Shown here piece by piece: positions 1,837 through 34,955 of a stretch of DNA of 37,537 nt. The position numbers were made by a program, and so were the translations under genes. The notes below the pieces were generated by a model. It was not told the DNA's origin. It made no database searches and worked only from the letters and a program-made list of their open reading frames with translations. Numbering within the stretch: the first letter of the stretch is position 1; each line of letters begins with the position of its first letter. Origin of the DNA: Actinomycetota bacterium. GTDB lineage: Bacteria > Actinomycetota > Actinomycetes > JAKEEW01. The stretch is from assembly GCA_046725875.1 (NCBI GenBank), contig JBKOZJ010000099.1, forward strand, positions 1 to 37,537, read 5' to 3'.

Positions 1837-2179
1837 ATGAGCGCGGACCAGGTCCTCCACGAGAGCCACACTTGCCGGATTCTTGAAGACCAGTAATCCG
1901 CGCGGTCTGAAGCTCTATGGCAGCATCGACATCGCCGCCCGGTCGGTACTGGAACACAACCTCAAAGCCGCGCTCCGCGAAGACGGCGACCTCTATGTCG
2001 ATCTGTCCGAACTCGAGTTCATCGACGTCGGAGGAATGCGTGCTCTCCTGGACGCCGCGGCCTACCTTCGGGTCGATGGATGGTGGCTCTACCTAGTCAG
2101 CCCGACCCTGACCGTCCTCCGGATCATCAGGATCTGCCAGGACACGGCCGCGAACAACATCACCGTTGTCCCTGCCTAA
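1837..2179 (+). CDS. STAS-domain anti-anti-sigma-like protein, apparent +1 frameshift near 1881-1884
   Basis: ORF 1883-2179 has GLKLYGSID and VDLSELEFIDVGGMRALL. An upstream ATG (1837, after GAGG) gives MSADQVLHESHTCRIL, which joins naturally to KTSNPRG only with a 1-nt shift. Confidence 0.7.
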
Positions 2180-4983: not shown

Positions 4984-5418
4984 CTATCCCGTCACCGGGC
5001 TGGACCGGGGCAGCGGCGGCCGGACACCTGTTCGCAGACGTCCGGTCGCCGGCCAGCTCATCGTGATCTCGGACCCACCGTCCAGCTTTTCGATCTCGAG
5101 GTCGTCGACGAGCCCGGTGAGCACAGCGAGCCGGATCTCGGTCTCGACGGGTTCTTGGTCTGGAGGTTCGGGCAAGCGGTCCCTGACCGACACGATGAAC
5201 CGGCCGGGTGCGTCGGCGAATACCACGGACACCGGCACCTTGGGTGCAGCTTGCGCGTGGAGTTCGACCGCGCGGGAGCAGGCCTCGCCGACTGCAAGCC
5301 GCACCTCGTCGAGCACCGCCTCGTCGACCCCGCATTGCCGGGCGACCGCCGATGCCACCAGCCGGGCGGTACGGACATGCGCCGGCAGCGGGGTGAATTC
5401 GATCTCTACGGTCTCCAT
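4984..5418 (-). CDS. apgA: RsbW-like anti-sigma factor partner of BldG (ApgA/SCO3548-like)
   Basis: LPAHVRTARLVASAVAR...LDEVRLAVGEACSRAV. Lies directly downstream of bldG, as in Streptomyces. Confidence 0.8.
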   Translation of the reverse strand: METVEIEFTPLPAHVRTARLVASAVARQCGVDEAVLDEVRLAVGEACSRAVELHAQAAPKVPVSVVFADAPGRFIVSVRDRLPEPPDQEPVETEIRLAVLTGLVDDLEIEKLDGGSEITMSWPATGRLRTGVRPPLPRSSPVTG

Positions 5419-5427
5419 CGCGCCAGG

Positions 5428-5769
5428 TCAGTCGTCCGCCTCGACGGCCTCCTCGACAGTGCTATGGATCGGGAAGACCTTGGTCAAACCGGTGATCCTG
5501 AAGATCTTGAGAATACGCTCCTGTGTGCATACCAGCCGCAGCGATCCGTCGTGTGCCCGTACTCGCTTGAGCCCTCCGACCAGGACGCCAAGGCCGGTGG
5601 AGTCGAGGAACTCGACGCCCTCCATGTCCACGATGAGGTGGTAATTGCCGGCGGTGACGAGGTCCACCAGGCGCTCCCGGAGCTTGGGTGCGGTGTAGAC
5701 GTCAATCTCGCCCCCGATCTCGACGATGGTCCGGTCCCCTTGAGTGCGGGTGGACAGTGTCAGATCCAC
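5428..5769 (-). CDS. bldG: Anti-sigma factor antagonist BldG
   Basis: 113 aa STAS protein: [33 protein letters not shown] with the phosphoacceptor Ser, [23 protein letters not shown]. Divergent from the helicase. Confidence 0.93.
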
Positions 5770-6054
5770 GAATCCTCCATGCTTCGAGCGTCAGCCAGAC
5801 CCCATGGCATCGACCATATGCGCCGAGGCGACACGGCGGTGTGGCTGGTGCGGCGCCGGGTGGGCGACCGCCCCAGCGATTCAATCACCTAATGCCGTCG
5901 AAGGCAGACATCCCACGAAATCCTCGCTTCAGTTCCTGCGAGTCCGACCCGGGTCGAGACATCCCGGCTCCGTTCCAAAATGTTCTTGAGCGGACCGACA
6001 ACCGCGAAACCTGTCCGGCGTCCCAGTCAGGCGTGGCTGCGAGACTGGGTCGTT

Positions 6055-8433
6055 GTGATGCCCGCCTCGGCGACTCGTGCCACTAGCGCGACGACCATCC
6101 TCGATCGCCTGCTCCTGCCTTCGGGCCGCCGCGAGCGGGTGACGCACGTGGAGCACGTTCCGGCCCGGCCGGAGGTGCTGGCCGACTGGCCTAGCTGGTC
6201 ACATCCGCGCTTGGTGGACCGACTGGGCGCGATCGGCATCGAGCACCCCTGGACGCACCAGGTCAGCGCCGCCGAGCACGCTTGGGCAGGCCGTTCGGTC
6301 GTCCTGTCCGCAGGCACGTCGGCCGGCAAGTCCCTGGCCTACCTCTTGCCGGCACTCTCGGCGATCCTCGCCGCGCCGCGCGCCGCCGCAACCCCGACGG
6401 TGCTCTATGTCGCACCCACCAAGGCCCTCGCTGCAGATCAGTGGCGAGCCATCCGCGAACTCGACCTAGAAGGTCATGGCGTCCGGGCGGCCACCCTCGA
6501 CGGAGATACCACCCCGGAGGGTCGGGACTGGATCAAATCGCACGCCGGCTACGTCCTCACCAACCCCGACATGCTGCACCGGACGATTTTGCCGGGGCAC
6601 CAGCGTTGGGCGCGCCTCTTTCGCTCACTGGCCTTCGTCGTGATCGACGAGTGCCATGTCTACCGCGGAGTCTTCGGCTCGCACGTGGCGCAGGTGCTGC
6701 GCCGGTTGCGCCGGGTCGCTGCTCGGTACGGCGCCGCGCCGGTCTTCGTCCTCGCCTCCGCCACCGTCGCCGAGCCCAGCGTGTCCGCGAGCAAGCTGAC
6801 CGGGCTGCCCGTGGCGGCGGTCGCCGATGACGGTTCCCCGCGCGGCGAAACCGCCTTCGTCCTCTGGGAGCCGCCATTGACGAGGCTGTCCGGTGAGCAC
6901 GGCGCCCCGATCCGGCGCTCCGTGGTAGCCGAATCGGCCGACCTGCTCGCGGATCTCGTGGCGGACGGCGTCCGTACCGTCGCCTTCCATCGTTCCCGCC
7001 GCGGCGCCGAGATCGCCGCCCTGCTTGCCAAGCAGGCGCTCGCGCCGGTCGACCCAGACTTGGTCAACCGAGTCGCCGCCTATCGCGCGGGCTACCTCGC
7101 CGAGGAGCGGCGCGAGCTTGAACGCGCACTGCACCAGGGCGAGCTGCTGGGTCTCGCCGCCACCAGCGCCCTCGAGCTGGGGGTGGACGTGTCCGGGCTG
7201 GATGCCGTGGTTCTCGGCGGCTACCCGGGCACCCGCGCCTCGATGTGGCAGCAGGCCGGGCGGGCAGGCCGCGGCGGCCGGGACGCCCTCGCGGTCCTCG
7301 TCGCCCGGGACGACCCCCTGGACACCTACCTCGTTCATCATCCGGAGGCACTGTTCGGTGCGCCGGTCGAGGCGACCGTGCTCGACCCCGACAACCCTTA
7401 CGTCGTGGCGCCGCACCTTTGCGCTGCCGCGTGCGAGCTGCCGCTGACCGAGGCCGACCTGGAGCATTTCGGTCCGGCGGCACCGGGCCTCGTGCCCGAC
7501 CTCGAGGCCCGTGGCCTGCTGCGCCGCCGGGCGGTGGGGTGGTTCTGGACCCGGGCCGAGCGGGCGAGCGACTTGGCCGACATACGCGGAGCCGGTGCCC
7601 GACCGGTCGAGGTCGTGGAGAGCACGACCGGGCGCCTGCTCGGCACGGTCGACGCGGGCGCCGCCCACGCCACTGTTCACGACGGCGCGGTCTACCTGCA
7701 TCAGGGTGAGACATATGTCGTGGAGCGGCTGGATCTGGCCGAGGCGACCGCATTTGTGACGCCTGCCATGCCCGACTACACCACCACGGCTCGCGACATC
7801 ACCGATATCAGGGTGCTCGCGACCGAGCGCACCGAGGCGTGGCGTGCCGCTGGGCTGTGCTTCGGCACGGTCGAGGTGACCAATCAGGTCGTCTCCTACC
7901 TCCGCAAGCGGGTGATCTCGGGTGAGGTGCTCGGCGAGGAGCCGCTCGATTTGCCGCCACGCCACCTTCGGACCCGGGCCGTCTGGTGGACCTTGAGCCA
8001 GGCCCAGGTGGGGTCGCTCGACATCGAGTGGCCCGACCTTGGCGGCTGCTTGCACGCGGCAGAGCACGCGTCCATCGGCCTGCTGCCGCTCTTCGCGACC
8101 TGCGACCGGTGGGACATCGGCGGGGTGTCCACGGCGTTGCATGAGGACACCGCGCTGCCCACGGTCTTCGTGTACGACGGACAGCCGGGCGGGGCCGGTT
8201 TCGCAGAACGCGGTTTCGGTCGGGCCCGCGACTGGCTGTCCGCCACCCGCGAAGCCATCGCCGCCTGCGAGTGCGCCAGCGGCTGTCCGGCATGTGTGCA
8301 GAGTCCGAAATGCGGCAACGGCAACACGCCGCTCGACAAAGCCGGTGCCATCCGCGTGCTCGACGTCCTGCTCGCCGGCGCCCCCGCCTTATGCCCAGTA
8401 CGGGGATCAGAATCGGACAATTCGGTCCAATGA
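6055..8433 (+). CDS. DEAD/DEAH-box helicase with DUF1998 Zn domain (SftH/MrfA/Hrq1 family, Rv3649-like)
   Basis: Motifs AGTSAGKS, DECH, SAT, ALELGVD, QQAGRAGR and C-terminal CECASGCPACVQSPKC. Start uncertain (5980, 6055 or 6058). Confidence 0.92.
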   Translation: MMPASATRATSATTILDRLLLPSGRRERVTHVEHVPARPEVLADWPSWSHPRLVDRLGAIGIEHPWTHQVSAAEHAWAGRSVVLSAGTSAGKSLAYLLPALSAILAAPRAAATPTVLYVAPTKALAADQWRAIRELDLEGHGVRAATLDGDTTPEGRDWIKSHAGYVLTNPDMLHRTILPGHQRWARLFRSLAFVVIDECHVYRGVFGSHVAQVLRRLRRVAARYGAAPVFVLASATVAEPSVSASKLTGLPVAAVADDGSPRGETAFVLWEPPLTRLSGEHGAPIRRSVVAESADLLADLVADGVRTVAFHRSRRGAEIAALLAKQALAPVDPDLVNRVAAYRAGYLAEERRELERALHQGELLGLAATSALELGVDVSGLDAVVLGGYPGTRASMWQQAGRAGRGGRDALAVLVARDDPLDTYLVHHPEALFGAPVEATVLDPDNPYVVAPHLCAAACELPLTEADLEHFGPAAPGLVPDLEARGLLRRRAVGWFWTRAERASDLADIRGAGARPVEVVESTTGRLLGTVDAGAAHATVHDGAVYLHQGETYVVERLDLAEATAFVTPAMPDYTTTARDITDIRVLATERTEAWRAAGLCFGTVEVTNQVVSYLRKRVISGEVLGEEPLDLPPRHLRTRAVWWTLSQAQVGSLDIEWPDLGGCLHAAEHASIGLLPLFATCDRWDIGGVSTALHEDTALPTVFVYDGQPGGAGFAERGFGRARDWLSATREAIAACECASGCPACVQSPKCGNGNTPLDKAGAIRVLDVLLAGAPALCPVRGSESDNSVQ

Positions 8434-8629
8434 TCACGGTTACCTGGCGCCAAGCAGCGGGCACAGGGCGCACTGTGGCGGGGGGCCGAACCGCTCCGGG
8501 TTCTGTTGGCCGTCGGGCACCTCGGTTTTCTGACCTGCGACTCTCGTGTCGGCTCAGGCTGACAGGGTAGGTTTCTCGACGATCACATTTGTCGGCCCCC
8601 TGCGGAGCCGGCTGGCGTAGGAGGTCGTC

Positions 8630-9247
8630 ATGATTGTGATCGCGATCCTGCTGCTCGCTGCCATTGCGATCGTCACCGCCGGCGTGATTGCTGGATCCGA
8701 ACAGGACGCCGTCTTCGACGTGTTCGGCGAGACCGTTCACGCGTCCGGCTGGGAGATTTTCGCGCTCGGCGCCGCCTGCGGTTTCGCGCTGCCGATCGCA
8801 ATTTGGCTACTCCGCGTCAGTACCCGGCGGGCTCGGTTGCGCCATCGCGAGCAGCGCGAACTCCGTGCTGCTCATGAGAGGCAGCGCGTCGAGCTGGAGC
8901 AGCAGCGCCAGGAACTTGAAGAGGAGCGCGAGAAACGCCGCAACGGCGGCCTGGTCCGGCCGTACGTCGGCAGTGGCGCCCCGGGCGACCAATCAGCGGA
9001 CACTGGTCCCGGCGGCGGCCCGACGTCCAGCCCCGTCGGCGATCGCACGGGCGAAGGCCCGGCCGCCGAGCGCCCCGTGAGTCCGTCAGATGCGGACCGG
9101 CCTAGTGGCGAGCGCGAGCCGCCGACCGCACGGTTCGACGTACAACGGCCCGGCGTCCGCCCGTACGGCACGACGAGCAGCGGGCTCGGCCCGCCGCCGG
9201 CAGACAGCGGGGGCTTCGGAGCCTTCGACCGTCCGCCCGGCTCATAG
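8630..9247 (+). CDS. Hypothetical membrane protein (2 TM, coiled coil, Pro/Gly-rich tail)
   Basis: AGGAGG RBS, two hydrophobic segments, then an E/R/Q-rich helix (REQRELRAAHERQRVELEQQRQELEEEREKRR). Confidence 0.8.
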   Translation: MIVIAILLLAAIAIVTAGVIAGSEQDAVFDVFGETVHASGWEIFALGAACGFALPIAIWLLRVSTRRARLRHREQRELRAAHERQRVELEQQRQELEEEREKRRNGGLVRPYVGSGAPGDQSADTGPGGGPTSSPVGDRTGEGPAAERPVSPSDADRPSGEREPPTARFDVQRPGVRPYGTTSSGLGPPPADSGGFGAFDRPPGS

Positions 9248-9441
9248 CGCAGATCGTCGATCTAGTCCACTGAGCACCACACCGGCGCTGTGGACAGGCG
9301 CACCGGCACACTTCACTCGTCCAATCGGCGAGGTACGAGGCTATTCACCAAGGCATTTCCCGATCTCTACACTGACGACCAACGGCCGAGGGTGTCCCGA
9401 AGGCAGGTACTGGACGGTCCGACGCGGGGGAGGGGCACCTG

Positions 9442-11190
9442 ATGAATGCCTCAGGATCTGGCGCTGCGCGTGGGTGGCTGCTCGTCGTCGAGGGAGACCC
9501 GAAGGCGCGTCATCTAATCAGCGAGCAACTGCGGCGCCGCTACGGGGCTGATTATGACGTTGTCGCGAAGAGCTCCGGCGCGGCCGCACTCGCCACCCTG
9601 CAGTCGTTGAGAGACGAGAACGCCCAGGTTGCCGTCGTGTTGTGCGACGTTGGCGGCTCCGACCAGGTTGACGAGGACCACTTCTTCGGGCGGGTCCGGG
9701 CCCTCTATCCGGAGGCAAAGCGCGGCCTTCTGGTGGATTGGGGCGCCTGGGCCGATCCGCCGACCGCGGAAGTGATTCTGCGCCTCATGGCGCTGGGCAA
9801 GATCGATTATTACGTGCTCAAGCCGTGGCGACCTGCGGACGAATACTTTCATCGCACCATCACGGAGTTCCTGCTGGAGTGGGAGCGGGCCATCTCCCTG
9901 GTGCCGCGAGAGGTGTCCGTCATTGGCAGTCCTTCCTCGCCGCGCACTCACGAACTGCGCAGCCTGCTCGTTCGCAACGGCGTTCAACACGTCTTTCATG
10001 ACAGCGACAGCCCGATCGGCCGGCGAATGCTCGCCGAGGCGGACCAGTCCGGCACCGCATTGCCAGTCGTGCTGCTGCTCGATGGTCGGGTCCTGGTCGA
10101 TCCGACGAACGCCGAACTCGCGGATGCATATGGCGTCCGCACGCATCTCGACGGGGATGCCGACTTCGACCTGATCGTGGTCGGCGCCGGCCCGGCTGGT
10201 CTGGCAGCGGCCGTGTATGCGTCCTCCGAGGGCCTGCGCACGCTCGTCGTGGAGCGCGAGGCGATCGGCGGCCAGGCTGGCTCGAGTTCGCTGATTCGCA
10301 ACTACCTTGGCTTCTCCCGCGGGGTCAGTGGTGCCGATCTGGCCCAGCGGGCCTATCAGCAGGCATGGGTGTTCGGGACCAACTTCCTACTCATGCGCGA
10401 AGCGGTGGGACTCAGCAGCGAGCCGCGCTGGCACACCGTGGCCGCCGCGAACGGCCAGCGGGCGCGGGCTCGCGCGGTTGTTCTCGCGACCGGCGTGAGC
10501 TATCGGCGTATCGGCGTTCCGGACTTGGAGGCGCTGGTGGGCGCGGGAGTCTTCTACGGTGCGTCGGTGTGGGAGGCTCGGGCGCTGGCCGGCAAGGACG
10601 CCGTCGTTGTCGGCGGCGGCAACTCGGCCGGGCAGGCGGCCCTGCACCTCGCTCGATACGCCCGCAGCGTGACCGTTCTTGTTCGCGGGTCATCGCTGGC
10701 CGAGAGCATGTCGCAATACCTGATTGACGAGATTGCCGCAGCCGGTGTTCGAGTCGACCTGGAAACGGAGGTTGTCGATGGCGGCGGCGACGGCCGACTC
10801 GAGTGGATCAGACTGCGCGATCGCCCGTCCGGCGAGACGCGGACCGCGGAAGCCAGCGCGCTCTTCATTCTGATCGGGGCTACGCCGCATACCGCCTGGC
10901 TGCCGCCGGACATACAGCGTGACGAGTCGGGCTATCTGATCACTGGACGCGATGTCATCGCAGGCCTCCCGAGCAGGGATTGGCCGTTGCCGCGTCCGCC
11001 GCTGATGCTAGAGACCTGCGTTCCGGGCATCTTCGCTGTCGGCGACGTCCGGCATGGCTCGGTCAAGCGGGTTGCCTCGGCGGTCGGCGAGGGGTCGATC
11101 GTTGTTAGCCAGGTGCACGAGCTGCTCGCTCGTGACTCGTCCCCGGACATGTCCGCCAAGCGCCCGGCCGCGACCGAAACAGGTCGATGA
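9442..11190 (+). CDS. Receiver-domain + glutaredoxin-like + thioredoxin-reductase-like FAD/NAD(P)H oxidoreductase fusion
   Basis: REC (LLVVEGD, VLCD, YVLKPW), middle Grx-like segment, GAGPAG, GGQA, IRNYLGF, ATG, GGGNSA and GIFAVGDVR..KRVASAVGEG. No CxxC. Possible -10 TACACT at 9368-9373 and GGAGG RBS. Confidence 0.9.
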   Translation: MNASGSGAARGWLLVVEGDPKARHLISEQLRRRYGADYDVVAKSSGAAALATLQSLRDENAQVAVVLCDVGGSDQVDEDHFFGRVRALYPEAKRGLLVDWGAWADPPTAEVILRLMALGKIDYYVLKPWRPADEYFHRTITEFLLEWERAISLVPREVSVIGSPSSPRTHELRSLLVRNGVQHVFHDSDSPIGRRMLAEADQSGTALPVVLLLDGRVLVDPTNAELADAYGVRTHLDGDADFDLIVVGAGPAGLAAAVYASSEGLRTLVVEREAIGGQAGSSSLIRNYLGFSRGVSGADLAQRAYQQAWVFGTNFLLMREAVGLSSEPRWHTVAAANGQRARARAVVLATGVSYRRIGVPDLEALVGAGVFYGASVWEARALAGKDAVVVGGGNSAGQAALHLARYARSVTVLVRGSSLAESMSQYLIDEIAAAGVRVDLETEVVDGGGDGRLEWIRLRDRPSGETRTAEASALFILIGATPHTAWLPPDIQRDESGYLITGRDVIAGLPSRDWPLPRPPLMLETCVPGIFAVGDVRHGSVKRVASAVGEGSIVVSQVHELLARDSSPDMSAKRPAATETGR

Positions 11191-12536
11191 GGAGCGGCCG
11201 CCTCGCCCTGATCGTCGCCTTGGCGCTGCCCATGGCCGGCCTCGCACTGCTGATCGCTCGGCCGCGTCTCGATGTTGCCTGGGAGCACCATCCGGCTCAC
11301 TTCTGGCTTGTGCTTGCTGCCGGTGGGTTGAGTGCCGCGCTCGCCTATGCGACGGGTACGACCGCGCAGCGGCGCGGTGACGCGCGAATCTTCCTGATTT
11401 CGCTCGCATTTCTCGCGGCCGCAGGCTTTCTCGGGTTGCATGCCCTCGCGACTCCGGGCGTTCTGCTCGCCGGCCCTAACACCGGCTTCACGATCGCTCC
11501 CGCAATCGGATTGATCGTTGCGGGTGCTTTCGCCGCTGCGTCGAGCATGGAGCTTCCGCCCAGTCGAGCCCATGAGCTGATGCGTCGGTCGGGACTCGGG
11601 CGAGGTCTGCTGCTCGTCGTCCTGGTTGGGTGGGGGGTCGCGTCGGCCGCGGGCGTTCCGCCGCTCGGCAACTCGGCCCCACCCGAGCGAGCATCGGGGC
11701 CGCTGGTCGCCCTTGCCGTCGGGGCAACCGTGCTGTACGCGATCGCGGTGGCGCGTTACCTGCGCGTCCCGCGGCGTCCGGGGTCGGTCCGACTGCTGAT
11801 AGCGGTGATCTCCGCGTTCACGCTGCTTGCGGAGGCCGCGATTGCCGTAGCGGTGGGCCGTAACTGGCATGCCAGCTGGTGGGAGTGGCACCTGTTGATG
11901 CTCGCCGCCGTCACCTTGGTAGCTGCCAGTGCGCACCGCCAGTGGTACGAGGAGCGCTTCGCGGCCCTTTATTCGGAGGACACCACCGCCGGTATGCGGG
12001 AGATCAGCATCCTCTTTGCTGACCTGCAGGGCTTCACCGCATTCTCGGAGAAGCACCCGCCGCATGAGGTGACGACAATGCTGAACGAGTACTTCACGGT
12101 GGCCATCCCTCCGATCGTCGAGCGGTTTGGTGGTCAGGTCGACCGGATAATCGGGGATGCGTTGGTGGCAACGTTCAATGTTCGCGGCGATCAACCGGAT
12201 CACCCGCTGCGGGCAGCGCGCGCGGCGCTCACAGTCCAACAGATCACCGCGGAGATCGCCGGCAAGCATCAGGGCTGGCCGCGATTCCGAGTCGGGGTCA
12301 ACACCGGCGAGGCGGCCGTGGCCGTACTCGGAACGTCGGGCGGTCGCACCTTCACCGTCATCGGCGACGCGGTGAATCTCGCTGCCCGGCTGGAAGGCGC
12401 CGCACCGGTCGGGGGCGTGGTGATCGGTCCGGAAACTGCACGCCGCCTGCCCTCGGCCCGCACCGTACCGATGGGGCGGGTCCAGGTGAAAGGAAAGACA
12501 GACGCTGTCGAGATCTATCAGCTCCTCGATACCTGA
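11187..12536 (+). CDS. Membrane-anchored class III adenylate/guanylate cyclase
   Basis: About 7-8 TM segments, then ILFADLQGFT, VDRIIGDA, RVGVNTGE and TVIGDAVNLAARLE. ATGA overlap with the upstream gene. Confidence 0.92.
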   Translation: MRSGRLALIVALALPMAGLALLIARPRLDVAWEHHPAHFWLVLAAGGLSAALAYATGTTAQRRGDARIFLISLAFLAAAGFLGLHALATPGVLLAGPNTGFTIAPAIGLIVAGAFAAASSMELPPSRAHELMRRSGLGRGLLLVVLVGWGVASAAGVPPLGNSAPPERASGPLVALAVGATVLYAIAVARYLRVPRRPGSVRLLIAVISAFTLLAEAAIAVAVGRNWHASWWEWHLLMLAAVTLVAASAHRQWYEERFAALYSEDTTAGMREISILFADLQGFTAFSEKHPPHEVTTMLNEYFTVAIPPIVERFGGQVDRIIGDALVATFNVRGDQPDHPLRAARAALTVQQITAEIAGKHQGWPRFRVGVNTGEAAVAVLGTSGGRTFTVIGDAVNLAARLEGAAPVGGVVIGPETARRLPSARTVPMGRVQVKGKTDAVEIYQLLDT

Positions 12537-12593
12537 CATCCTCGCGCGGCCAAGTGGCGCTCGCGCCCGCGAATGCGGGATCACTCGTGGTCA

Positions 12594-13016
12594 TCAACTG
12601 GCGGTTGGTCCAGCGCGGGCCTGACCTGTGGCTGGACCGAGGCGAGAAAGCGGTCCTGGCAGGCTTACCTGGACGGTTACGGATGCGATCGCTCCGGCAA
12701 GCCGGCAGGACGTCAGGCGTGCGCCTTGAGCGCTCGCCACATGCGCCGCCGTTTCGCAGGCAGCGCCACCGCGCTCGAGCACATGCGCGGCCGCCGAGAG
12801 CGCGCTCAAGTCCGCTGCCGCGGCGGCGCGGTGGCGGGCGACGAGTCCCGCACCGAGGCTGACGCCCGTCATGCCAAGAAGGACGACGATTGCGATCAGC
12901 CCGAGGACATAGACGCTCCCCGATCCGCGCTCACGACTCGCCCGCGACGGGAATGACGACGAGAGCGCGGTGCTGACCGCGGCGGCGCCGCTTTTGCCGC
13001 ATCCACAACTGCGCAT
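12594..13016 (-). CDS. Rv3654c-family TadE/TadG-like pseudopilin
   Basis: ERGSGSV + hydrophobic helix, RHRAAAAADLSALSAA, paired Cys and terminal ARAGP. TAATG overlap with the upstream gene. Confidence 0.85.
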   Translation of the reverse strand: MRSCGCGKSGAAAVSTALSSSFPSRASRERGSGSVYVLGLIAIVVLLGMTGVSLGAGLVARHRAAAAADLSALSAAAHVLERGGAACETAAHVASAQGARLTSCRLAGAIASVTVQVSLPGPLSRLGPATGQARAGPTAS

Positions 13017-13456
13017 TAGCAGGACTCACCGGCGCAGCCTGGTTCCACCGCGACGGTCGCATCGGCAGACACCGTCAACGTCGGTGCCGGAACAGCCCCG
13101 CCGAAGGGGGCTGTCCTGGCGCTAACTTCGACGTGCACCAGTCCGCCGCTTTGCGTCACCGCAATGTGTGCGCCTTTCGGTGCCAGCCGGTGGCCTGCCG
13201 CCACGCTTGCCGCCACGCCATCGCCGCGCGCGGCCGCTCGGGCGGTGGCTCGGGCCGCATCGACACACCGCAGCTGCGCCGTGACCGCGAGAACGGCCCA
13301 CAGCATCAGCCCGACGACAAGCACGAGCGCCGGCAGGGCCAACGCTGTCTCAGCAACGACCATGCCCCTTTCCTGGCGGATGCGGTCTCGCCGCAGCTCG
13401 ACTTGATTTCTCCGGCGCCGGCGTCTGCGAATCTTGGCGTGGCCAAGGACAACCAT
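13016..13456 (-). CDS. tadE: TadE-family minor pilin (Rv3655c-like)
   Basis: ERG|MVVAETALALP prepilin site and QLRCVDAARATARAAARG. GGAGG before the ATG at 13456. Confidence 0.85.
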   Translation of the reverse strand: MVVLGHAKIRRRRRRRNQVELRRDRIRQERGMVVAETALALPALVLVVGLMLWAVLAVTAQLRCVDAARATARAAARGDGVAASVAAGHRLAPKGAHIAVTQSGGLVHVEVSARTAPFGGAVPAPTLTVSADATVAVEPGCAGESC

Positions 13457-13598
13457 CGACCCACCTCCCGGTCGGACTGGACTGCAGGCGCGGGAGCCCA
13501 GGCGCGACCGGCGCGCCTGGCTCCCAGTCAGTGACACGACCGAGTGGCCGCTAATTCATGCGCCTGTTGTGCGGCCATCGAGCGCTAGATCATCGCCG

Positions 13599-13949
13599 TT
13601 AGGACAGCGACGTGAGCGCGCGCTTGACGATCGAAGTGACGAGCCCGGTCACCGCGCCACCCGTCACAATCTTGTATAGGACTACCGCGAAGGCCGCTGC
13701 GGCGACCGTTCCTACCGCATACTCCGCCGTCGCCATGCCGGCCTCGCACGCCTTAGCGCGGACCCGTCGCCGGAGGGATGCACCCCCCGCCCAGTGCAAG
13801 ACGAGACAGATCGCGACTCGGCCGCCGTGCGCGGCGTTCGCCAGGAGCCGAAGCACCGCCCCGGGCCGCGAGGCGGGTGGGACCCCACGACGCAGCGCTC
13901 CCGGCATCTCGCGGATTAGCCTCCAGCATTCTTGAACCCTGCGAATCAT
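13599..13949 (-). CDS. Flp-like major pilin (DUF4244, Rv3656c-like)
   Basis: EAG|MATAEYAVGTVAAAAFAVVLYKIV Flp motif. GGAGG before the ATG at 13949. Start uncertain. Confidence 0.85.
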   Translation of the reverse strand: MIRRVQECWRLIREMPGALRRGVPPASRPGAVLRLLANAAHGGRVAICLVLHWAGGASLRRRVRAKACEAGMATAEYAVGTVAAAAFAVVLYKIVTGGAVTGLVTSIVKRALTSLS

Positions 13950-14110
13950 GGCACCTCCCCTGATCCGGCTGGCCGGCCGGCTCGGGCATCGAGCGACTTC
14001 CCGCTGCGACTGCAAGCCTTCTCTGATCCGCGCTGGTCGACTTGGTCGCTTCATTACCTGGGGACTAAGGCCGCAAATATCTCGACCCTGTGGACGGTTG
14101 GCGGCGAGGG

Positions 14111-14893
14111 TCAGATCGAAAGACTCTGGACGAGTCCGGCGACGATCGGTACCAGCCCGATCAGGACGAAGGCCGGCAGGAAGCAGAGACCGAGCGGTGC
14201 CGCCGCCCGGATCGCGACCCGGCGAGCCTCGGCCTCCGCGGCAATCCGCTCCCGCGAGCGCAGTTCGGTCGCGAGCTCCGTGAGCAGATTGACCAGAGGC
14301 GCACCCGTGTCAGCCGACCGCACGAAGGCCGCACCGAGCGATTGCAGTGGTCCCTCCGTGAGCCCGGCCCAGGTCCGGACCGGATCACCGCCAAGGCGTA
14401 GCGTCGCCACGACTCGCCGAAGCTCTCCGGCGAGCGGCTCGTTCACTGCTCCTGCCACCGCTTCGGCCGCCTGCGGCGGCAGTGCGCCGGCGGCCAGGCA
14501 CGCCGCCAGCAGCTCGGTCGCGAGCGGGAGATCCACGGCCAGCCGACGACTTCTCTGGCCGGCGGCCGAGACAGCTGTGCCGTGCAAGACGCGGCGGGTG
14601 AACACGCCGGCCGCGCAGCCGAGGAGTATGCCAAGCCCACCGCCGACCGCCGCTGCGACCAGCACTCCGATGCCGACGGCCACGATCGTCGGTGCCCGGG
14701 CAACCGTTCCCCTAAGCGAGCCGAGCCACTCAGAGCCCGGCCGGACGAGTCGGGTATCGAGGTCGCGGAAACCCTCCCGTCCGGATCGGCCCGCACGATC
14801 CACCTGATCGAGTCGGGAAGCCGCTGCTACTCGCGGCGCGAACCACACCAGCACCGCGGCACCGAGACACAGAGCGGCCGACGTCGCTGCCAT
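14111..14893 (-). CDS. tadC: TadC / type II secretion system F-family protein
   Basis: DLPLATELLAACLAAG, LRLGGDP, RSADTGAP and PLGLCFLPAFVLIGLVP. ATG at 14893 with a GAGGCGG RBS. Confidence 0.88.
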   Translation of the reverse strand: MAATSAALCLGAAVLVWFAPRVAAASRLDQVDRAGRSGREGFRDLDTRLVRPGSEWLGSLRGTVARAPTIVAVGIGVLVAAAVGGGLGILLGCAAGVFTRRVLHGTAVSAAGQRSRRLAVDLPLATELLAACLAAGALPPQAAEAVAGAVNEPLAGELRRVVATLRLGGDPVRTWAGLTEGPLQSLGAAFVRSADTGAPLVNLLTELATELRSRERIAAEAEARRVAIRAAAPLGLCFLPAFVLIGLVPIVAGLVQSLSI

Positions 14894-15000
14894 GGCTAGT
14901 CCGCCTCGGGTGGAGTGGCGGACGTCGCGGCCATGGCTAGCCCGCCTCGGGTGGAGTGGGGGATGTTGCGGCCATGGCGGGCCCGCCTCGTGCGGAGCGC
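14881..15000. repeat. Three imperfect tandem copies of a 41-bp unit containing the tadC RBS/start
   Basis: CATGG recurs at 14891, 14932 and 14973. Unit is approximately GCCATGGCTAGYCCGCCTCGGGTGGAGTGGSGGAYGTYGCG. Confidence 0.9.
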
Positions 15001-15133
15001 GGCGAAGCCCGGCCTGGTGCCGTCCCATCACGGGGACGCGAGATGCCCACCGCCAACCAAATCAGGGGGTTGGCCATCAGCGGAGTGGCAGGAGAGAGGA
15101 GGGCTGGCCCTTTCAGGTAGCCGGCGGGCCTGT

Positions 15134-15913
15134 TCATGGTCGGCCTCGCGCAAGTGCTCGGGCAGTAATGCGCGACATCCACCAGAGGCCGGCGACCTCC
15201 AGGGCTATCCCGGCCACGAGGAGCGTCCTGCCCAACGACGAGCCGAACAGAAACGGCAAGGGAGCGGCGCCCAACGCTTCTCCCATGGTGATCCCGACGA
15301 TTGGCAGCATGGCCAGCAGCCGAGTCGTCGCGCGCGGACCGGCAAGCTCCGCCGCGATGCGGCGGCGGTGCTCCTCGTCGGCGCGGAGCGAGCCGACCAG
15401 CCCCGCGGCCGCGTCGGCCAGGCCGGGACCGTGTTGCTCGGCCACCTGCCAGCAGGCTGCGAGTGCGCGTAATCCTTCCCGCCCCGGCGTCTGAGCGTCC
15501 AACCGCAGCCCGCGGAGGACGTCGCCGTCGGCCAGCGCGGATTTCACGCCACGTGGCGCACCCAGATGGTGACTGCGTCCCGCCTGGGCGAGCGCTTCAG
15601 GTGGATTCCGACCGGCCCGAAGTTCGGCGACGAGCGCCGCGCACAGCCCGATGACCTCAGCCCTGTTCTGGCTCTCGACCCGACGCGAGCCGAACGCCTT
15701 CCACCCCGTCACCCAACTCGGGTGCTCACCCGAGTCGGACGTCGAGTCAGGCCCACTGTTGGCACTGGCTCCGCGGCCTGCTGCCTGCGGTTGGGCCGGC
15801 TGCTGTACGACGGGAAGAGCGCGGTCCAACCGCACGATGGCCAGAATCCGCGTCAACCCCCCAACAGCAGCGAACGCCGCGAGCCCGAACAGGACCGCAG
15901 CCACGAGACCCAC
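15134..15913 (-). CDS. tadB: TadB / type II secretion system F-family protein
   Basis: ALVAELRAG, LAACWQVAEQHG, AELAGPRATTRLLAMLP and C-terminal TMs. Position after tadA. Confidence 0.87.
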   Translation of the reverse strand: MGLVAAVLFGLAAFAAVGGLTRILAIVRLDRALPVVQQPAQPQAAGRGASANSGPDSTSDSGEHPSWVTGWKAFGSRRVESQNRAEVIGLCAALVAELRAGRNPPEALAQAGRSHHLGAPRGVKSALADGDVLRGLRLDAQTPGREGLRALAACWQVAEQHGPGLADAAAGLVGSLRADEEHRRRIAAELAGPRATTRLLAMLPIVGITMGEALGAAPLPFLFGSSLGRTLLVAGIALEVAGLWWMSRITARALARGRP

Positions 15914-15937
15914 CTCGGAAGTCCTTCGAGCAGCACT

Positions 15938-17215
15938 TCAGAGCGGTGTGGTTGCAGGCCGAGGCGACGGCGGGACCGAGACCGGCAGCGGTCCGATCAT
16001 CTCGGCCAGCCGGCCGCCGCCCGGGCCGGCGACCGGCTCTGGCATGAACTCGACTGCAGGCACGACATGCACCAAGCCGGCCCGGGCGCGGTGTAGTACA
16101 CCGATCGACGCGACCCGACGCATTCCCTCCCGGTCTCGGGTCAAATGAACAAGGACCCGCAAGCCGGCGGCGAGCTGGCTGTGGACCGCCGCCCGATCCA
16201 GGCCGGCGGCGACGGCAAGCGCCTCCACCCGAGCGGGGACATCCACAACCGAATTGGCGTGGATCGTCCCACACCCGCCGTCGTGCCCGGTATTCAGCGC
16301 GGCGAGCAACTCGACGACTTCGCCGCCACGAACCTCGCCGACGACCAGCCGATCGGGACGCATTCGGAGGGCCTGCCTCACCAGGTCACGCAGCGCGACC
16401 ATTCCGACCCCGTCGAGGTTGCCGGGCCGGCCTTCAAGGCGTACGACATGCGGGTGATCGGGCCGCAGCTCCGATGAATCCTCCACCAGAACGATGCGCT
16501 CTCGAGCGGAGACCAGCGACAGGAGGGTCGACAGCAGCGTGGTCTTGCCGGTGCCCGTACCACCCGACACCAGGAACGCCACCCGGGCGTCCACCAGCCG
16601 GCGCAGCAGGGACGCACCCGCTGTCGCCACGGTGCCCGACTCCGCCAGCTCGCCCAGAGTGAAGCCGCGCCGGCGCGGAACCCGGAGCGAGATGCACGTC
16701 CCGCCCGGCGCGATCGGCGGGATGACCGCGTGAACCCGGACGCCGCTTGGCAGCCTCGCGTCGACGAACGGGCTCGCGTCGTCGAGCCGCCGGCCGCCGG
16801 CCGCAGCAAGACGCTGGGCGAGCCGGCGGACGGCCGCCTCGTTGGTGAACCGGACGGCAACTCGCTCCAGCCGGCTGCCGCGGTCCACCCACACCTCATC
16901 GGGCGAGTTGACCAGCACGTCGGTCACCTCCGGATCAGCGACCAGCGAGTCCAGCGGCCCGATGCCGGTCAGCTCCGGACGCAGCGCCTCGACCACGTCG
17001 AGGACCGCCGCATCACCCAGCACGCCAGCCTCCTCTCGGACGACAGCGGCAATCGCCGCCGGCGTCGCCGCCATCCCGGTCTCGACGAGGCGCATGCGTA
17101 CCCGATCGATCAGGCCAGGGTCGGCGGCACGGGAGTTCCATGACGCTCGAGCAAGCCGCTGATCTTCGGCGCCACGATCTTCGGCGCCACCGCGGGGGTG
17201 GGTTGGGGACCTCAC
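15938..17215 (-). CDS. tadA: TadA/CpaF pilus assembly ATPase
   Basis: Walker [26 protein letters not shown] and [19 protein letters not shown] overlap with ssd. Confidence 0.94.
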
Positions 17216-29053: not shown

Positions 29054-29249
29054 GCGACAAGACTACGTGCCGGCACTGATGGCCGGGCGCCGGCAAGGCG
29101 AAACCCGAACTCCGCGCAGCCGCACAACCCCCGCTCTCTCTGGTCGTACGCTGCAGCCCGGGGTTGGTGCGGCGGGGCGATGATCGGCGACAATGGTGGC
29201 GCCGGACCCTGACTGGCGCGTCGGGTCGGTGCTTGCCGAGGAGGTTGCC

Positions 29250-29945
29250 GTGGGCGAGCGACCAAGCCTTGGGGATGTGCTGCGGCGTGCTCCGCTCTTC
29301 GCCGTTCTCGATGCGGAGTCGGCTGCCTCGCTGCGCAAGACGATGGCCGAGGTGCACCTCCGTCGCGGCGACATTCTCTTCCACGAAGGAGACCCGGGCG
29401 ACCGGGTCTACATCGTTACCGAGGGAAAGATCAAGCTCGGTCGCACCGCCCCCGATGGTCGCGAGAACCTCCTTGGCGTGCTCGGGCCGGGGGAGACCTT
29501 CGGCGAGGTGTCTCTGTTCGACCCCGGTCCGCGAACGGCCACGGCGACGGCGGTCACCGACGCCACGCTGCTCGGGCTCGGAAATGCCGATCTGCAGCCC
29601 TGGTTGACCGAGCGTCCCGAGGTGGCCAAGGGGCTGCTCCAGCAGGTGGCCCACCGGCTGCGCCACGCCAACGAAATCATGGCCGACCTCGTCTTCCAGG
29701 ACGTGCCGGGCCGGGTCGCGAAGGCCCTGCTCGATCTCGCCGCCCGGTTTGGCACACCGGCCCCGGCCGCCGGCATCCACGTCCACCATGACCTAACCCA
29801 AGAGGAGCTCGCCCAGCTCGTCGGCGCGTCGCGGGAGACCGTCAACAAGGCGCTCGCCGATTTCGTGAGCCGCGGCTGGATCCGCCTGGAGGCCCGCGCA
29901 GTCGTGCTCCTCGACGTCGATCGCCTCCAACAACGCGCCCGCTGA
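29250..29945 (+). CDS. crp: cAMP receptor protein (Crp/GlxR)
   Basis: FGEVSLFDPGPRTATA cNMP pocket and HTH LTQEELAQLVGASRETVNKAL. GAGGAGG before the GTG at 29250. Confidence 0.95.
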   Translation: MGERPSLGDVLRRAPLFAVLDAESAASLRKTMAEVHLRRGDILFHEGDPGDRVYIVTEGKIKLGRTAPDGRENLLGVLGPGETFGEVSLFDPGPRTATATAVTDATLLGLGNADLQPWLTERPEVAKGLLQQVAHRLRHANEIMADLVFQDVPGRVAKALLDLAARFGTPAPAAGIHVHHDLTQEELAQLVGASRETVNKALADFVSRGWIRLEARAVVLLDVDRLQQRAR

Positions 29946-34655: not shown

Positions 34656-34955
34656 TCAGGTTTGGACTGGCTCGAGCTCCCGCAGGTAGCTGTCCCGGGC
34701 GGACTCGAGCAGCGCCCGCCACGATTGGACATTGGGCCGCTGGCGGAGCAGCGCACGCCGCTCCCGCTCGGTCATCCCACCCCATACGCCCCACTCGGTC
34801 CGATGATCCAGGGCGTCGGCAAGGCACTCGGTGCGCACCGGGCAGCGCATGCATACGCCTTTAGCGCGGTTCTGCCCGGCGCCGGCCACGAACAACTGAT
34901 CCGGGTCACCTGCTCGACAAGCGGCGTCGTTGACCCAGTCCGCCTTCCACGTCAT
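34656..34955 (-). CDS. wblA: WhiB-family Fe-S regulator WblA/WhiB4
   Basis: AAC..DPDQLFV.GA.QNRAK..CMRCPVRTECLADALD..WGVWGGMTERERR. Divergent from ponA2. Confidence 0.93.
   Translation of the reverse strand: MTWKADWVNDAACRAGDPDQLFVAGAGQNRAKGVCMRCPVRTECLADALDHRTEWGVWGGMTERERRALLRQRPNVQSWRALLESARDSYLRELEPVQT

What the first reader, a model, noticed from the sequence alone, without database searches (positions are those of the whole stretch)
9442..12536. Candidate redox-to-cyclic-nucleotide system: orphan REC-TrxR-like flavoprotein coupled to a membrane class III cyclase
Seen: the two genes overlap by ATGA, share a putative promoter (TACACT at 9368) and have no histidine kinase nearby. Known: actinobacterial REC-TrxB fusions usually sit beside a histidine kinase, and class III cyclases feed Crp, which is encoded at 29250. 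Inference: the flavoprotein passes electrons or redox state from NAD(P)H to the cyclase membrane domain, or binds it directly, linking redox status to cNMP and perhaps to Tad pilus or wblA control. This is the best candidate for an undescribed system in the window.
Basis: partly seen in the sequence, partly recalled or inferred. Interest (0 to 1): 0.75.

Follow-up and report, generated by a model that had tools for sequence, protein, structure and literature searches.

The report
Flavoprotein–membrane cyclase signalling gene pair
Two overlapping genes, a cysteine-less thioredoxin-reductase-like flavoprotein with a receiver domain and an eight-helix membrane nucleotide cyclase, form a gene pair that recurs across actinobacteria, and the flavoprotein family is tied to cyclic-nucleotide signalling in three separate ways, so it is probably a new enzymatic arm of that signalling.

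Summary
Genes 9442..11190 and 11187..12536 are co-directional and overlap by ATGA.

- **Gene 1** has a receiver-like domain, a glutaredoxin-like fold and a TrxR-like FAD/NAD(P)H module. The CxxC disulfide is absent in 81 of 81 relatives.
- **Gene 2** is an 8-TM domain with invariant outward-facing His38/His85/His235, joined to a class III cyclase. The catalytic residues are intact, but Arg replaces the substrate Lys.

The pair recurs. Of the 80 best flavoprotein loci from species genomes, 24 carry the same 8-TM cyclase immediately downstream, with varied flanks. Nine more carry a soluble cyclase directly upstream, one carries a remnant of it, and two carry other cyclase types.

Sister clades replace the cyclase with a cNMP-binding histidine kinase (5 of 6 inspected, also found fused), or replace the receiver with a cNMP-binding domain.

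So functional coupling is well supported. I read the flavoprotein as the regulated output of cNMP signalling (about 0.5). The reverse reading, a redox sensor controlling the cyclase, stays a live rival (about 0.3). I found no paper describing this link. I rate it a new variant of a known kind, interest 0.62.

The parts
9368..9373 (+). TACACT, a candidate -10 hexamer (TANNNT type) 68 bp upstream of the start codon
   Evidence: Present. It is the only TANNNT in the 194-bp intergenic region, where 0.24 is expected. The consensus scan found no -35/-10 pair. Function not shown.
9426..9435 (+). Shine-Dalgarno-like GGGGGAGGGG, ending 6 nt before the ATG
   Evidence: Read directly from the sequence.
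9442..11190 (+). Flavoprotein gene (582 aa): receiver-like, glutaredoxin-like and Cys-less TrxR-like domains
   Evidence: ORF. Pfam Pyr_redox_2, E 2e-33. Full-length relatives at 61-77% identity. AlphaFold model with mean pLDDT 77.4.
9472..9894 (+). Receiver-like domain (residues 11-151) with Glu17, Asp19, Asp69 and Lys127 present; the Thr/Ser of strand 4 is replaced by the invariant WGAW motif
   Evidence: The model shows (beta-alpha)5 order. A family profile hits solved receivers (HupR1, E 1e-7). Pfam is below cut-off for this protein. Asp69 is kept in 49 of 81 family members.
9913..10128 (+). Glutaredoxin/thioredoxin-like fold (residues 158-229) without cysteines; SPSS occupies the place where a CxxC would sit
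   Evidence: Secondary-structure order b-a-b-a-b-b-a. Weak profile hit to a solved glutaredoxin (2lqo, E 0.032). The best Foldseek hits are intact AhpF, aligned over 524-555 columns. The CxxC placement is judged by eye from the alignment.
10162..11136 (+). TrxR-like FAD/NAD(P)H module (residues 241-565). GxGxxG and GGGNSAG are kept; GASVWE stands in place of the redox-active CxxC
   Evidence: Alignment to solved TrxRs. TIGR01292 scores 195.6 bits against a cut-off of 343. No Cys at the aligned positions in 81 of 81.
11187..12536 (+). Membrane class III cyclase gene (449 aa); its start overlaps the flavoprotein stop (ATGA)
   Evidence: Full-length relatives at 60-79% identity. AlphaFold model with mean pLDDT 80.1.
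11187..11954 (+). 8-TM sensor-like domain (residues 1-256), remotely MASE3-like. Near-invariant residues: His38, Asp65, Arg67, His85, Thr89, Trp227, Trp231, Trp232, Trp234, His235
   Evidence: Hydropathy. Eight long helices in the model. The listed residues are conserved in 70 of 71 diverse representatives, except Asp65 in 69 of 71. MASE3 scores only 14.2 bits against a cut-off of 31. The domain family has 1104 clusters at E<=1e-3.
11994..12533 (+). Class III cyclase catalytic domain (residues 270-449): Asp279, Asp324, Asn397 and Arg401 are kept, Arg320 stands in place of the substrate Lys, and Thr373 is present
   Evidence: Pfam. Alignments to the solved cyclases CyaB and Cya2. The four catalytic residues are invariant in A2. 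In flavoprotein-linked orthologues: Asp/Asp/Asn/Arg in 22 of 22 and Arg320 in 19 of 22. The residue roles are recalled from the class III literature.
29193..29945 (+). Crp-family regulator, the only cNMP-binding domain in the window. It is a possible reader of the cyclase product; no link is shown
   Evidence: cNMP_binding plus HTH_Crp_2. It is the only window hit to cNMP-binding queries.

Best explanation
The two genes are a conserved cyclic-nucleotide signalling module.

- **The cyclase.** It is a dimeric class III cyclase controlled by an 8-TM sensor domain. Invariant His38/His85/His235, with Asp65, Arg67 and a Trp-rich motif, lie at the outer membrane face and probably bind a metal or small ligand. 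Its product is a cNMP of unproven identity, because Arg replaces the adenine-specifying Lys.
- **The flavoprotein.** It is not a disulfide reductase. It is a Cys-less NAD(P)H/FAD oxidoreductase module placed behind a regulatory N-terminal domain.
- **Three links to cNMP.** Across its superfamily the same module is wired to cNMP in three interchangeable ways: (1) a cNMP-binding domain fused in front of it; (2) a receiver in front of it plus a cNMP-binding histidine kinase encoded next to it or fused to it; (3) a receiver in front of it plus a cyclase encoded next to it, which is the window's arrangement.
- **Inferred mechanism.** The flavoprotein is the enzymatic output of the pathway that the cyclase starts. 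The signal would reach its receiver either by phosphorylation of Asp69 from an unlinked cNMP-binding kinase or by direct contact with the cyclase catalytic domain.

Shown: the domain anatomy, the missing CxxC, the recurrence of the pair, the adjacency to several cyclase types, and the cNMP-binding relatives. Inferred: the direction of signalling, the route to the receiver, the ligand of the 8-TM domain, the product and the electron acceptor.
For: **Recurrence of the pair**
- 24 of the 80 best flavoprotein loci carry the 8-TM cyclase immediately downstream, 23 of them on the same strand (591 relatives were found).
- In 21 of those 23 a start codon lies within about -8 to +84 bp of the flavoprotein stop.
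- The hosts include Jiangella, Kribbella, Nocardioides, Pedococcus and Agromyces, plus Mycobacteriales, Thermoleophilaceae and Solirubrobacteraceae MAGs.
- The upstream neighbours differ between loci.
- On the flavoprotein tree the label needs 7 changes, against a shuffled mean of 15; 0 of 500 shuffles were as low.

**Other cyclase types**
- 9 of 80 loci carry a roughly 287-aa soluble cyclase directly upstream on the same strand, and 1 carries an internally deleted remnant of it.
- 2 of 80 carry other cyclases directly upstream. L059, with a 4-bp overlap, and L055 nest inside the main 8-TM-cyclase clade.
- 44 of 80 loci hold a cyclase catalytic domain, or in L053 the remnant of one, within 8 kb.

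**Output-domain grammar**
- 14 of 29 longer relatives are fusions of receiver, TrxR-like module and HATPase_c, and 11 of those 14 also carry cNMP_binding. The domain order is REC, Pyr_redox_2, cNMP_binding, HATPase_c.
- In 5 of 6 inspected plasmid-borne receiver-type relatives, from four phyla, a cNMP_binding + HATPase_c gene follows directly.
- Relatives with a cNMP-binding domain in place of the receiver share residues 160-576 at 46% identity.

**Other points**
- No CxxC in 81 of 81.
- Asp69 is kept in 21 of 25 flavoproteins linked to the 8-TM cyclase.
- The catalytic residues are intact in 22 of 22 linked cyclases.
- Of 60 long representatives of the 8-TM domain, 35 carry a cyclase domain and 1 carries a SpoIIE phosphatase domain, as expected of a sensor module.
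Against: - The window's flavoprotein has no cNMP-binding domain, and the window holds no cNMP-binding kinase. The relay from cNMP to the receiver is therefore hypothetical.
- Gene adjacency fits the opposite direction equally well.
- 36 of 80 relatives have no cyclase within 8 kb.
- In the clade linked to the soluble cyclase, the phospho-acceptor is Ala in 9 of 10, so phosphorelay cannot be the general route.
- No flavoprotein-cyclase fusion was found: 0 of 29 longer relatives and 0 of 60 long 8-TM representatives.
- The reverse conditional, how many 8-TM cyclases lack the flavoprotein, was not sampled.
- No activity, cofactor, product or binding was measured.
Confidence: 0.5

Rival explanations
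1. Redox-to-cNMP. The flavoprotein senses the NAD(P)H/NAD(P)+ ratio, oxygen or another oxidant through its FAD. It then modulates the cyclase by protein contact, with its receiver as an extra phospho-input, so that cNMP reports redox state.
For: - The adjacency data fit equally well: 24 of 80, plus 9 of 80, plus 2 of 80.
- The common element among the three partner cyclase types is the catalytic domain, a plausible docking target.
- In the fused relatives the flavin module lies N-terminal to the kinase core, where sensor domains usually sit.
- The loss of the disulfide suits a sensor as well as it suits an enzyme.
Against: - Relatives made only of a cNMP-binding domain plus the same flavin module have no downstream signalling domain, so there the flavin module must be the output.
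- The fused proteins look like fusions of an adjacent response-regulator and kinase gene pair.
- The cyclases already carry their own N-terminal sensor domains.
- Electron transfer to the 8-TM domain specifically is disfavoured by the soluble partners and by the outward-facing His cluster.
Confidence: 0.3
2. Co-transcription without a signalling link. The two proteins work in the same physiological response, for example a stress response, but neither regulates the other.
For: - 36 of 80 flavoprotein relatives have no cyclase within 8 kb.
- No fusion of the two was found.
- Passages in two papers report induction of the S. coelicolor 'trxB3' gene (SCO7298) by sulfane sulfur and by acid shock. 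Its kinship to the window protein was not checked here.
Against: - Independent adjacency to three cyclase architectures, with partner swaps inside one clade, is hard to explain without a functional link.
- So are the cNMP-binding domains in sister clades.
Confidence: 0.12
3. A Pycsar-like anti-phage pair, with a cyclase that makes a signal on infection and the flavoprotein as the effector.
For: - The cyclase domain matches PADLOC PycC models (best E 2.2e-22).
- The substrate-specifying Lys is replaced (Arg in the window; Gln, Arg, Lys and His among representatives).
Against: - PycC models are class III homologues, so the match is expected; Pfam Guanylate_cyc scores higher (85 bits).
- The flavoprotein matches no defence model.
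- The window context is a conserved housekeeping region: helicase, Tad-like secretion genes, Nth, Crp, WhiB and a PBP.
- The cyclase carries an 8-TM sensor domain.
- Both proteins are highly conserved (60-79% identity across families).
Confidence: 0.03

Closest known systems
Low-molecular-weight thioredoxin reductase (TrxB) and the C-terminal module of AhpF
   Same: The two-domain FAD/NAD(P)H fold. Solved TrxRs are the best sequence hits (E 6e-40). Foldseek's best hits are AhpF and TrxR. The GxGxxG and GGGNSAG motifs are kept. As in AhpF, a thioredoxin-like fold precedes the reductase.
   Different: There is no redox-active CxxC in the NADPH domain and no Cys in the thioredoxin-like fold. Scores fall below the curated cut-offs of TIGR01292, TIGR03140 and TIGR03143. 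A receiver is added at the N-terminus.
TrxR-type ferredoxin-NADP+ reductases (Cys-less TrxR-like flavoenzymes; PDB 3ab1, 5xhu, 6gar)
   Same: The TrxR fold without the disulfide, which makes flavin-only chemistry plausible. They are matched at E 7e-15 to 5e-12.
   Different: They are more distant than the true TrxRs, and they have no receiver or glutaredoxin-like domains. No ferredoxin partner is evident in the window.
'TrxB-type' response regulators paired with histidine kinases (listed for S. coelicolor as SCO7298/SCO7297), and the sister clade found here
   Same: The same architecture, a receiver followed by a TrxR-like module. The class is catalogued in a review table (passages only). The sister clade is 42-45% identical over 95% or more of the protein.
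   Different: In the sister clade the next gene is a cNMP_binding + HATPase_c kinase (5 of 6 inspected), or the two are fused. In the window's clade the neighbour is a cyclase or nothing, and 0 of 116 immediate neighbours is a kinase. SCO7298 itself was not compared by sequence.
'Cyclic nucleotide-binding domain-containing thioredoxin-disulfide reductase' (NCBI product name, for example on Rhodococcus plasmids)
   Same: It shares the glutaredoxin-like plus TrxR-like module, residues 160-576 at 46% identity. It also lacks the CxxC at the TrxR site.
   Different: Its N-terminal regulatory domain is cNMP_binding instead of a receiver. In the example inspected its neighbours are trxA and a UBP-type zinc-finger gene.
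Membrane class III adenylyl cyclases with sensor-type membrane domains (for example Rv1625c/Cya, PDB 7yzi/7yzk) and P. aeruginosa CyaB
   Same: A polytopic membrane domain directly joined to a class III catalytic domain. The catalytic domain is closest to CyaB (3r5g, E 2e-19; Foldseek E 2e-12).
   Different: It has eight helices rather than six and a different, remotely MASE3-like family with an invariant His/Trp signature. Arg stands in place of the substrate Lys. It has a dedicated flavoprotein neighbour.
Pycsar (cyclase plus effector defence pairs)
   Same: The two-gene logic of a class III-type cyclase with a partner protein. PycC models are matched.
   Different: There is no cNMP-binding, TIR or TM effector, no defence context, and the cyclase carries a sensor membrane domain.

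Membership tests
Thioredoxin-disulfide reductase (TrxB, TIGR01292) | Redox-active CxxC in the NADPH domain | tested here: not met
   GASVWE aligns to the CAVC of solved TrxRs. No Cys at these positions in 81 of 81 family members. The protein has only Cys68 and Cys526, and neither is conserved.
Thioredoxin-disulfide reductase (TrxB, TIGR01292) | Score at or above the curated family cut-off | tested here: not met
   195.6 bits against a cut-off of 343.45.
Thioredoxin-disulfide reductase (TrxB, TIGR01292) | FAD and NAD(P)H dinucleotide-binding motifs and the two-domain fold | tested here: met
   Pyr_redox_2 covers residues 242-551 over the full profile. GxGxxG and GGGNSAGQ are invariant. Foldseek to TrxRs gives target-normalised TM up to 0.78.
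Response-regulator receiver domain (PF00072) | Pfam gathering score | tested here: not met
   13.8 bits against 30.2, E 0.068. Many relatives do carry PF00072.
Response-regulator receiver domain (PF00072) | (beta-alpha)5 fold and profile similarity to solved receivers | tested here: met
   The model's secondary-structure order over residues 11-151. The family profile hits HupR1 at E 1e-7 and further receivers.
Response-regulator receiver domain (PF00072) | Phospho-acceptor Asp, acidic pair, and Lys of strand 5 | tested here: met
   Asp69, Glu17/Asp19 and Lys127 are present in the window protein. In the family, Asp69 is kept in 49 of 81 (21 of 25 linked to the 8-TM cyclase, 1 of 10 linked to the soluble cyclase). 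The assignment of positions is by alignment and recall.
Response-regulator receiver domain (PF00072) | Conserved Thr/Ser at the end of strand 4 | tested here: not met
   The family has LLVxWGAW here, with Trp100 in 71 of 81, and no Thr/Ser. The equivalence of positions was judged from the HupR1 alignment.
Class III nucleotidyl cyclase (PF00211) | Catalytic domain above the gathering score, two metal-binding Asp, and the transition-state Asn and Arg | tested here: met
   85 bits against 21.9. Asp279, Asp324, Asn397 and Arg401 are invariant in A2 and present in 22 of 22 linked orthologues. The residue roles are recalled.
Class III nucleotidyl cyclase, adenylyl-specific | Substrate-specifying Lys, with Asp or Thr at the second position | tested here: not met
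   Arg320 aligns to the Lys of CyaB, is invariant in A2 and is Arg in 19 of 22 linked orthologues. The second position is Thr or Ser. The product is therefore not assignable.
MASE3 membrane-associated sensor domain (PF17159) | Pfam gathering score | tested here: not met
   14.2 bits against 31. Two relatives reach 29 bits. The Atlas lists MASE3/MASE4 clusters at 0.85-0.88, which are leads only. Remote kinship is possible.
cNMP-sensing two-component pair (receiver-TrxR-like protein plus cNMP_binding-HATPase_c kinase) of the sister clade | Kinase gene adjacent to the flavoprotein or fused to it | tested here: not met
   No such gene in the window. 0 of 116 immediate neighbours in the 80 loci carry a kinase domain. 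Kinase-like hits lie within 8 kb in 4 of 80 loci, and none is adjacent.
Pycsar defence system | Effector with a cNMP-binding domain joined to a TM or TIR domain, and a defence-island context | tested here: not met
   The flavoprotein matches no PADLOC model. The window has a housekeeping context.

The most novel reading that the evidence does not exclude
The Cys-less glutaredoxin-like plus TrxR-like flavoproteins, whether fronted by a receiver or by a cNMP-binding domain, are a widespread and uncharacterised class of cyclic-nucleotide-controlled NAD(P)H-flavin oxidoreductases. They would be a new enzymatic effector class for cNMP signalling in bacteria. In the window's version this enzyme is hard-wired to an 8-TM cyclase that reads an extracytoplasmic metal or ligand through a three-His site. 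That cyclase may make a nucleotide other than cAMP, because Arg replaces the adenine-binding Lys.
Probability: 0.35. Interest if true: 0.8.

Novelty: new variant of a known kind. Interest (0 to 1): 0.62.

Why it matters
The known readers of bacterial cNMPs are mostly transcription factors, together with some kinases, acetyltransferases and channels. If the flavoprotein reading is right, cNMP would control a flavin oxidoreductase directly or through a short relay. That would link second-messenger signalling to redox metabolism.

The family is large. Databases name these proteins 'FAD-dependent oxidoreductase' or 'thioredoxin reductase', and the second name is chemically wrong for a protein without the disulfide.

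The work also defines an 8-TM sensor family with an invariant His/Trp signature, holding 1104 clusters, that mostly drives cyclases. Both proteins can be tested with ordinary assays.

Tried and rejected
- **Complex prediction.** The whole flavoprotein was folded with cyclase residues 252-449, using my own alignments. It gave no verdict (score 0.01 against a mark of 0.32). This is neither support nor evidence against binding.
- **Rosetta-stone fusion of flavoprotein and cyclase.** None was found among 29 longer relatives or among the 60 long 8-TM representatives scanned. This is weak evidence, because long proteins crowd the word search.
- **Reverse sampling (cyclase to flavoprotein).** A plasmid tblastn with the cyclase gave 7 records, all covering the catalytic domain only and none covering 80% of the query. 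The only hint is that 8 longest-contig lengths are shared between the two lists of 119 relatives.
- **'Cupin-like' label for the N-terminal domain of the soluble cyclase.** I dropped it, because Pfam gave no match at E<=1.
- **Riboswitch or other RNA family in 8400-12800.** None at E<=1.
- **Sigma-70 promoter consensus.** None found.
- **Terminator-like sites.** The three found do not exceed the shuffles.
- **Fold search of the 8-TM domain alone.** This was not possible. The whole-model search is dominated by the catalytic domain, and Rv1625c aligns poorly (rmsd 20.7).
- **Literature.** Six searches found no paper linking receiver-TrxR-like or cNMP-binding-TrxR-like flavoproteins to cyclases. 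The library lacks most subscription journals.

Full report
**What is there**

The window has about 68% G+C. It carries two co-directional ORFs, 9442..11190 (582 aa) and 11187..12536 (449 aa), and their stop and start share ATGA. TACACT sits at 9368. It is the only TANNNT in the 194-bp upstream spacer, where 0.24 is expected. The exact hexamer is not rarer than chance, and a consensus scan found no sigma-70-type promoter. No Rfam family matches 8400-12800.

The surroundings form a region of the type conserved in actinobacteria:
- H+-pyrophosphatase, STAS and anti-sigma genes, and a DECH helicase (TIGR03817);
- a Tad-like secretion locus;
- endonuclease III, Crp (29193..29945), two ArsA-like ATPases, WhiB (34656..34955) and a PBP.

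No classical histidine kinase is present. The nearest named relatives of both proteins are from Jiangella and from Jiangellaceae or Actinomycetes MAGs.

**The flavoprotein**

Pfam sees only the pyridine-nucleotide oxidoreductase module, residues 242-551. Solved thioredoxin reductases are the best sequence matches (E 6e-40), and AhpF and TrxR are the best fold matches.

The protein is not a disulfide reductase, for these reasons:
- Where TrxRs have CAVC, this protein has GASVWE.
- None of 81 family members has a Cys at these positions.
- The two cysteines of the window protein, Cys68 and Cys526, are not conserved.
- It scores far below the curated cut-offs for TrxB and AhpF.

The N-terminal 150 residues fail Pfam's receiver threshold. 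However, they fold as (beta-alpha)5 in the model, and a family profile hits solved receivers (HupR1, E 1e-7). Asp69, the acidic pair and Lys127 are present, but the strand-4 Thr/Ser is replaced by a near-invariant WGAW motif.

Residues 158-229 have the secondary-structure order of a glutaredoxin fold, a weak profile hit to a glutaredoxin (E 0.032), and no cysteine.

**The cyclase**

About eight hydrophobic helices precede a class III catalytic domain (E 6.5e-24). That domain is closest to P. aeruginosa CyaB and to Cya2. The two metal-binding Asp and the transition-state Asn and Arg are invariant. The Lys that specifies adenine in CyaB is an invariant Arg. The residue roles are recalled from the literature, so the product is open.

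The membrane domain defines a family of 1104 clusters at E<=1e-3. Of the 60 long representatives scanned:
- 35 carry a cyclase domain, 4 of them with a GAF domain in between;
- 1 carries a SpoIIE phosphatase domain;
- 2 carry GAF only;
- 22 have no Pfam family at E<=1e-6.

It therefore behaves as a sensor module. It is at best remotely MASE3-like. In 71 diverse members His38, His85, His235, Arg67, Thr89, Trp227, Trp231, Trp232 and Trp234 are kept in 70, and Asp65 in 69. By the positive-inside rule these His and Trp residues lie at the outer face; this topology is my inference.

**Does the pair recur?**

A scan of one genome per species with the flavoprotein profile returned 591 relatives, of which the 80 best were kept (51-70% identity).

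The 8-TM cyclase lies immediately downstream in 24 of the 80, on the same strand in 23 and convergent in L016. Two of the 24 are cut by contig ends. Six of the loci without a cyclase hit have less than 1 kb of downstream sequence. In 21 of the 23 same-strand pairs a start codon lies within about -8 to +84 bp of the flavoprotein stop.

The linked cyclases keep the catalytic residues in 22 of 22 and Arg320 in 19 of 22. The upstream neighbours differ from locus to locus, including RF-1, an M4 peptidase, MFS, GAF-ANTAR and glyoxalase, so the pair moves as a unit.

The hosts span Jiangella, Kribbella, Nocardioides, Pedococcus and Agromyces, a Mycobacteriales MAG and Thermoleophilia MAGs. On the flavoprotein tree the label needs 7 changes, against a shuffled mean of 15; 0 of 500 shuffles were as low.

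**An unexpected extension**

The flavoprotein is also adjacent to other cyclase types:
- In 9 of 80 loci, mostly Gaiellaceae, a roughly 287-aa cyclase lies directly upstream on the same strand. It has no predicted TM helix, and its N-terminal domain has no Pfam match.
- One further locus, L053, holds an internally deleted remnant of that cyclase.
- L059 has a different cyclase overlapping the flavoprotein start by 4 bp, and L041 has another just upstream.
- L059 and L055, the latter with a divergent NB-ARC cyclase, nest inside the main 8-TM-cyclase clade. This shows partner swapping that still keeps a cyclase.

In all, 44 of 80 loci hold a cyclase catalytic domain, or in L053 the remnant of one, within 8 kb. 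None of the 116 immediate neighbours scanned carries a kinase domain. Kinase-like sequence lies within 8 kb in 4 of 80 loci and is never adjacent.

**Sister clades point to the direction of signalling**

- Among 29 longer relatives, 14 are fusions of receiver, TrxR-like module and HATPase_c, and 11 of these also carry cNMP_binding. The domain order is REC, Pyr_redox_2, cNMP_binding, HATPase_c.
- On plasmids and secondary replicons, receiver-type relatives at 42-45% identity are followed directly by a homologous cNMP_binding + HATPase_c gene in 5 of 6 inspected: Streptomyces, Deinococcus, Tsukamurella, Caballeronia and Gloeothece. In the sixth, Nostoc, a transposase intervenes.
- Other relatives keep the glutaredoxin-like plus TrxR-like module at 46% identity but carry a cNMP-binding domain in place of the receiver. 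They also lack the CxxC.

A module whose N-terminal regulatory domain swaps between a receiver and a cNMP-binding domain is, by ordinary domain grammar, an output. I therefore favour cNMP acting on the flavoprotein, with the window's cyclase as the source. The relay in this clade is unknown. Asp69 is kept in 21 of 25 flavoproteins linked to the 8-TM cyclase, but it is Ala in 9 of 10 linked to the soluble cyclase.

**Rivals and limits**

I give that 0.3. Electron transfer to the membrane domain in particular is disfavoured by the soluble partners and by the outward-facing His cluster. A Pycsar-like reading is unlikely.

The limits are these:
- The reverse conditional, cyclases that lack the flavoprotein, was not sampled. 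Eight shared longest-contig lengths between the lists are only a hint.
- Complex prediction gave no verdict.
- Nothing was measured experimentally.

**Literature**

- A review table lists a 'TrxB'-type response regulator, SCO7298, paired with the kinase SCO7297 in S. coelicolor (PMC9739842, passages only).
- Two papers call SCO7298 a putative thioredoxin reductase, or trxB3. One reports induction by sulfane sulfur (PMC9952706) and the other by acid shock (PMC2631018); I saw passages only.
- I did not compare SCO7298 with the window protein.
- Six searches found no description of a link between these flavoproteins and cyclases or cNMP.

**Verdict**

- This is a new variant of a known kind, a second-messenger cyclase with a dedicated partner.
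- Interest is 0.62.

Noticed in passing
L046:7113-7973, L044:2833-3693, L031:2972-3841, L026:7126-7986, L064:7147-7971, L074:7126-7956 and others: A roughly 287-aa soluble class III cyclase lies directly upstream of the flavoprotein in 9 of 80 loci, mostly Gaiellaceae. It has a conserved N-terminal domain of about 120 aa with no Pfam match. L053:7549-7980 holds an internally deleted remnant of it.
   Followed up: partly
L082:7110-7463, L084:6137-6487, L083:3271-3537; protein P0408 residues 582-644: A UBP-type zinc-finger protein recurs next to the cNMP-binding kinase and next to the cNMP-binding TrxR-like gene. In one relative it is fused between the flavin module and the cNMP-binding domain.
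   Followed up: no
window 11187-12536 and proteins P0241-P0390: The residue at the substrate-specifying Lys position of the 8-TM cyclase family varies. In the 28 representatives that could be scored out of 150, it is Gln in 12, Arg in 6, Lys in 6, His in 2, Asn in 1 and Ser in 1. This suggests varied or unusual nucleotide specificity.
   Followed up: partly
L003:9851-11749: In one relative, from a MAG labelled Alphaproteobacteria, a GGDEF-EAL protein sits downstream of the flavoprotein where the cyclase sits in the window.
   Followed up: no
L034:2949-3380, L036:9671-10084, L040:9671-10123, L070:9681-10067, L014:9674-10093: A small SnoaL_2 or DUF1348 protein recurs convergently, often with a 4-bp overlap, downstream of flavoproteins that are not linked to a cyclase in Solirubrobacterales and Thermoleophilia MAGs.
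   Followed up: no
L007:6024-7574; protein P0098 (986 aa): A second flavoprotein of the Pyr_redox_2 + Pyr_redox_dim type lies directly upstream of the receiver-TrxR-like gene in L007. A 986-aa relative carrying both domain sets suggests a fusion or a merged gene call.
   Followed up: no
window 8630-9247: A 205-aa ORF between the helicase and the flavoprotein has one N-terminal TM helix, a charged coiled-coil-like stretch and a Pro/Gly-rich tail. No family matches above threshold, and it is not conserved beside the pair in other loci.
   Followed up: partly
window 5980-8433 and 12594-18438: A DECH helicase of the 'helicase/secretion neighbourhood' family (TIGR03817, 1212.8 bits) lies near a Tad-like locus (T2SSE, two T2SSF genes, DUF4244). 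The flavoprotein-cyclase pair sits between them.
   Followed up: no
window 1883-2179, 4984-5418, 5428-5769: Two STAS-domain proteins and an RsbW-like anti-sigma kinase (HATPase_c_2) flank an H+-pyrophosphatase gene (2229-4709). This looks like a partner-switching module unrelated to the finding.
   Followed up: no
L010:5799-7943, L014:5312-7774, L055:4976-7654, L062:5209-7419, L076:5206-7881, L080:6493-7932: STAND-type NTPases (AAA_16 or NB-ARC, often with TPR repeats) recur as upstream neighbours of the flavoprotein. The one in L055 also carries a cyclase domain.
   Followed up: no
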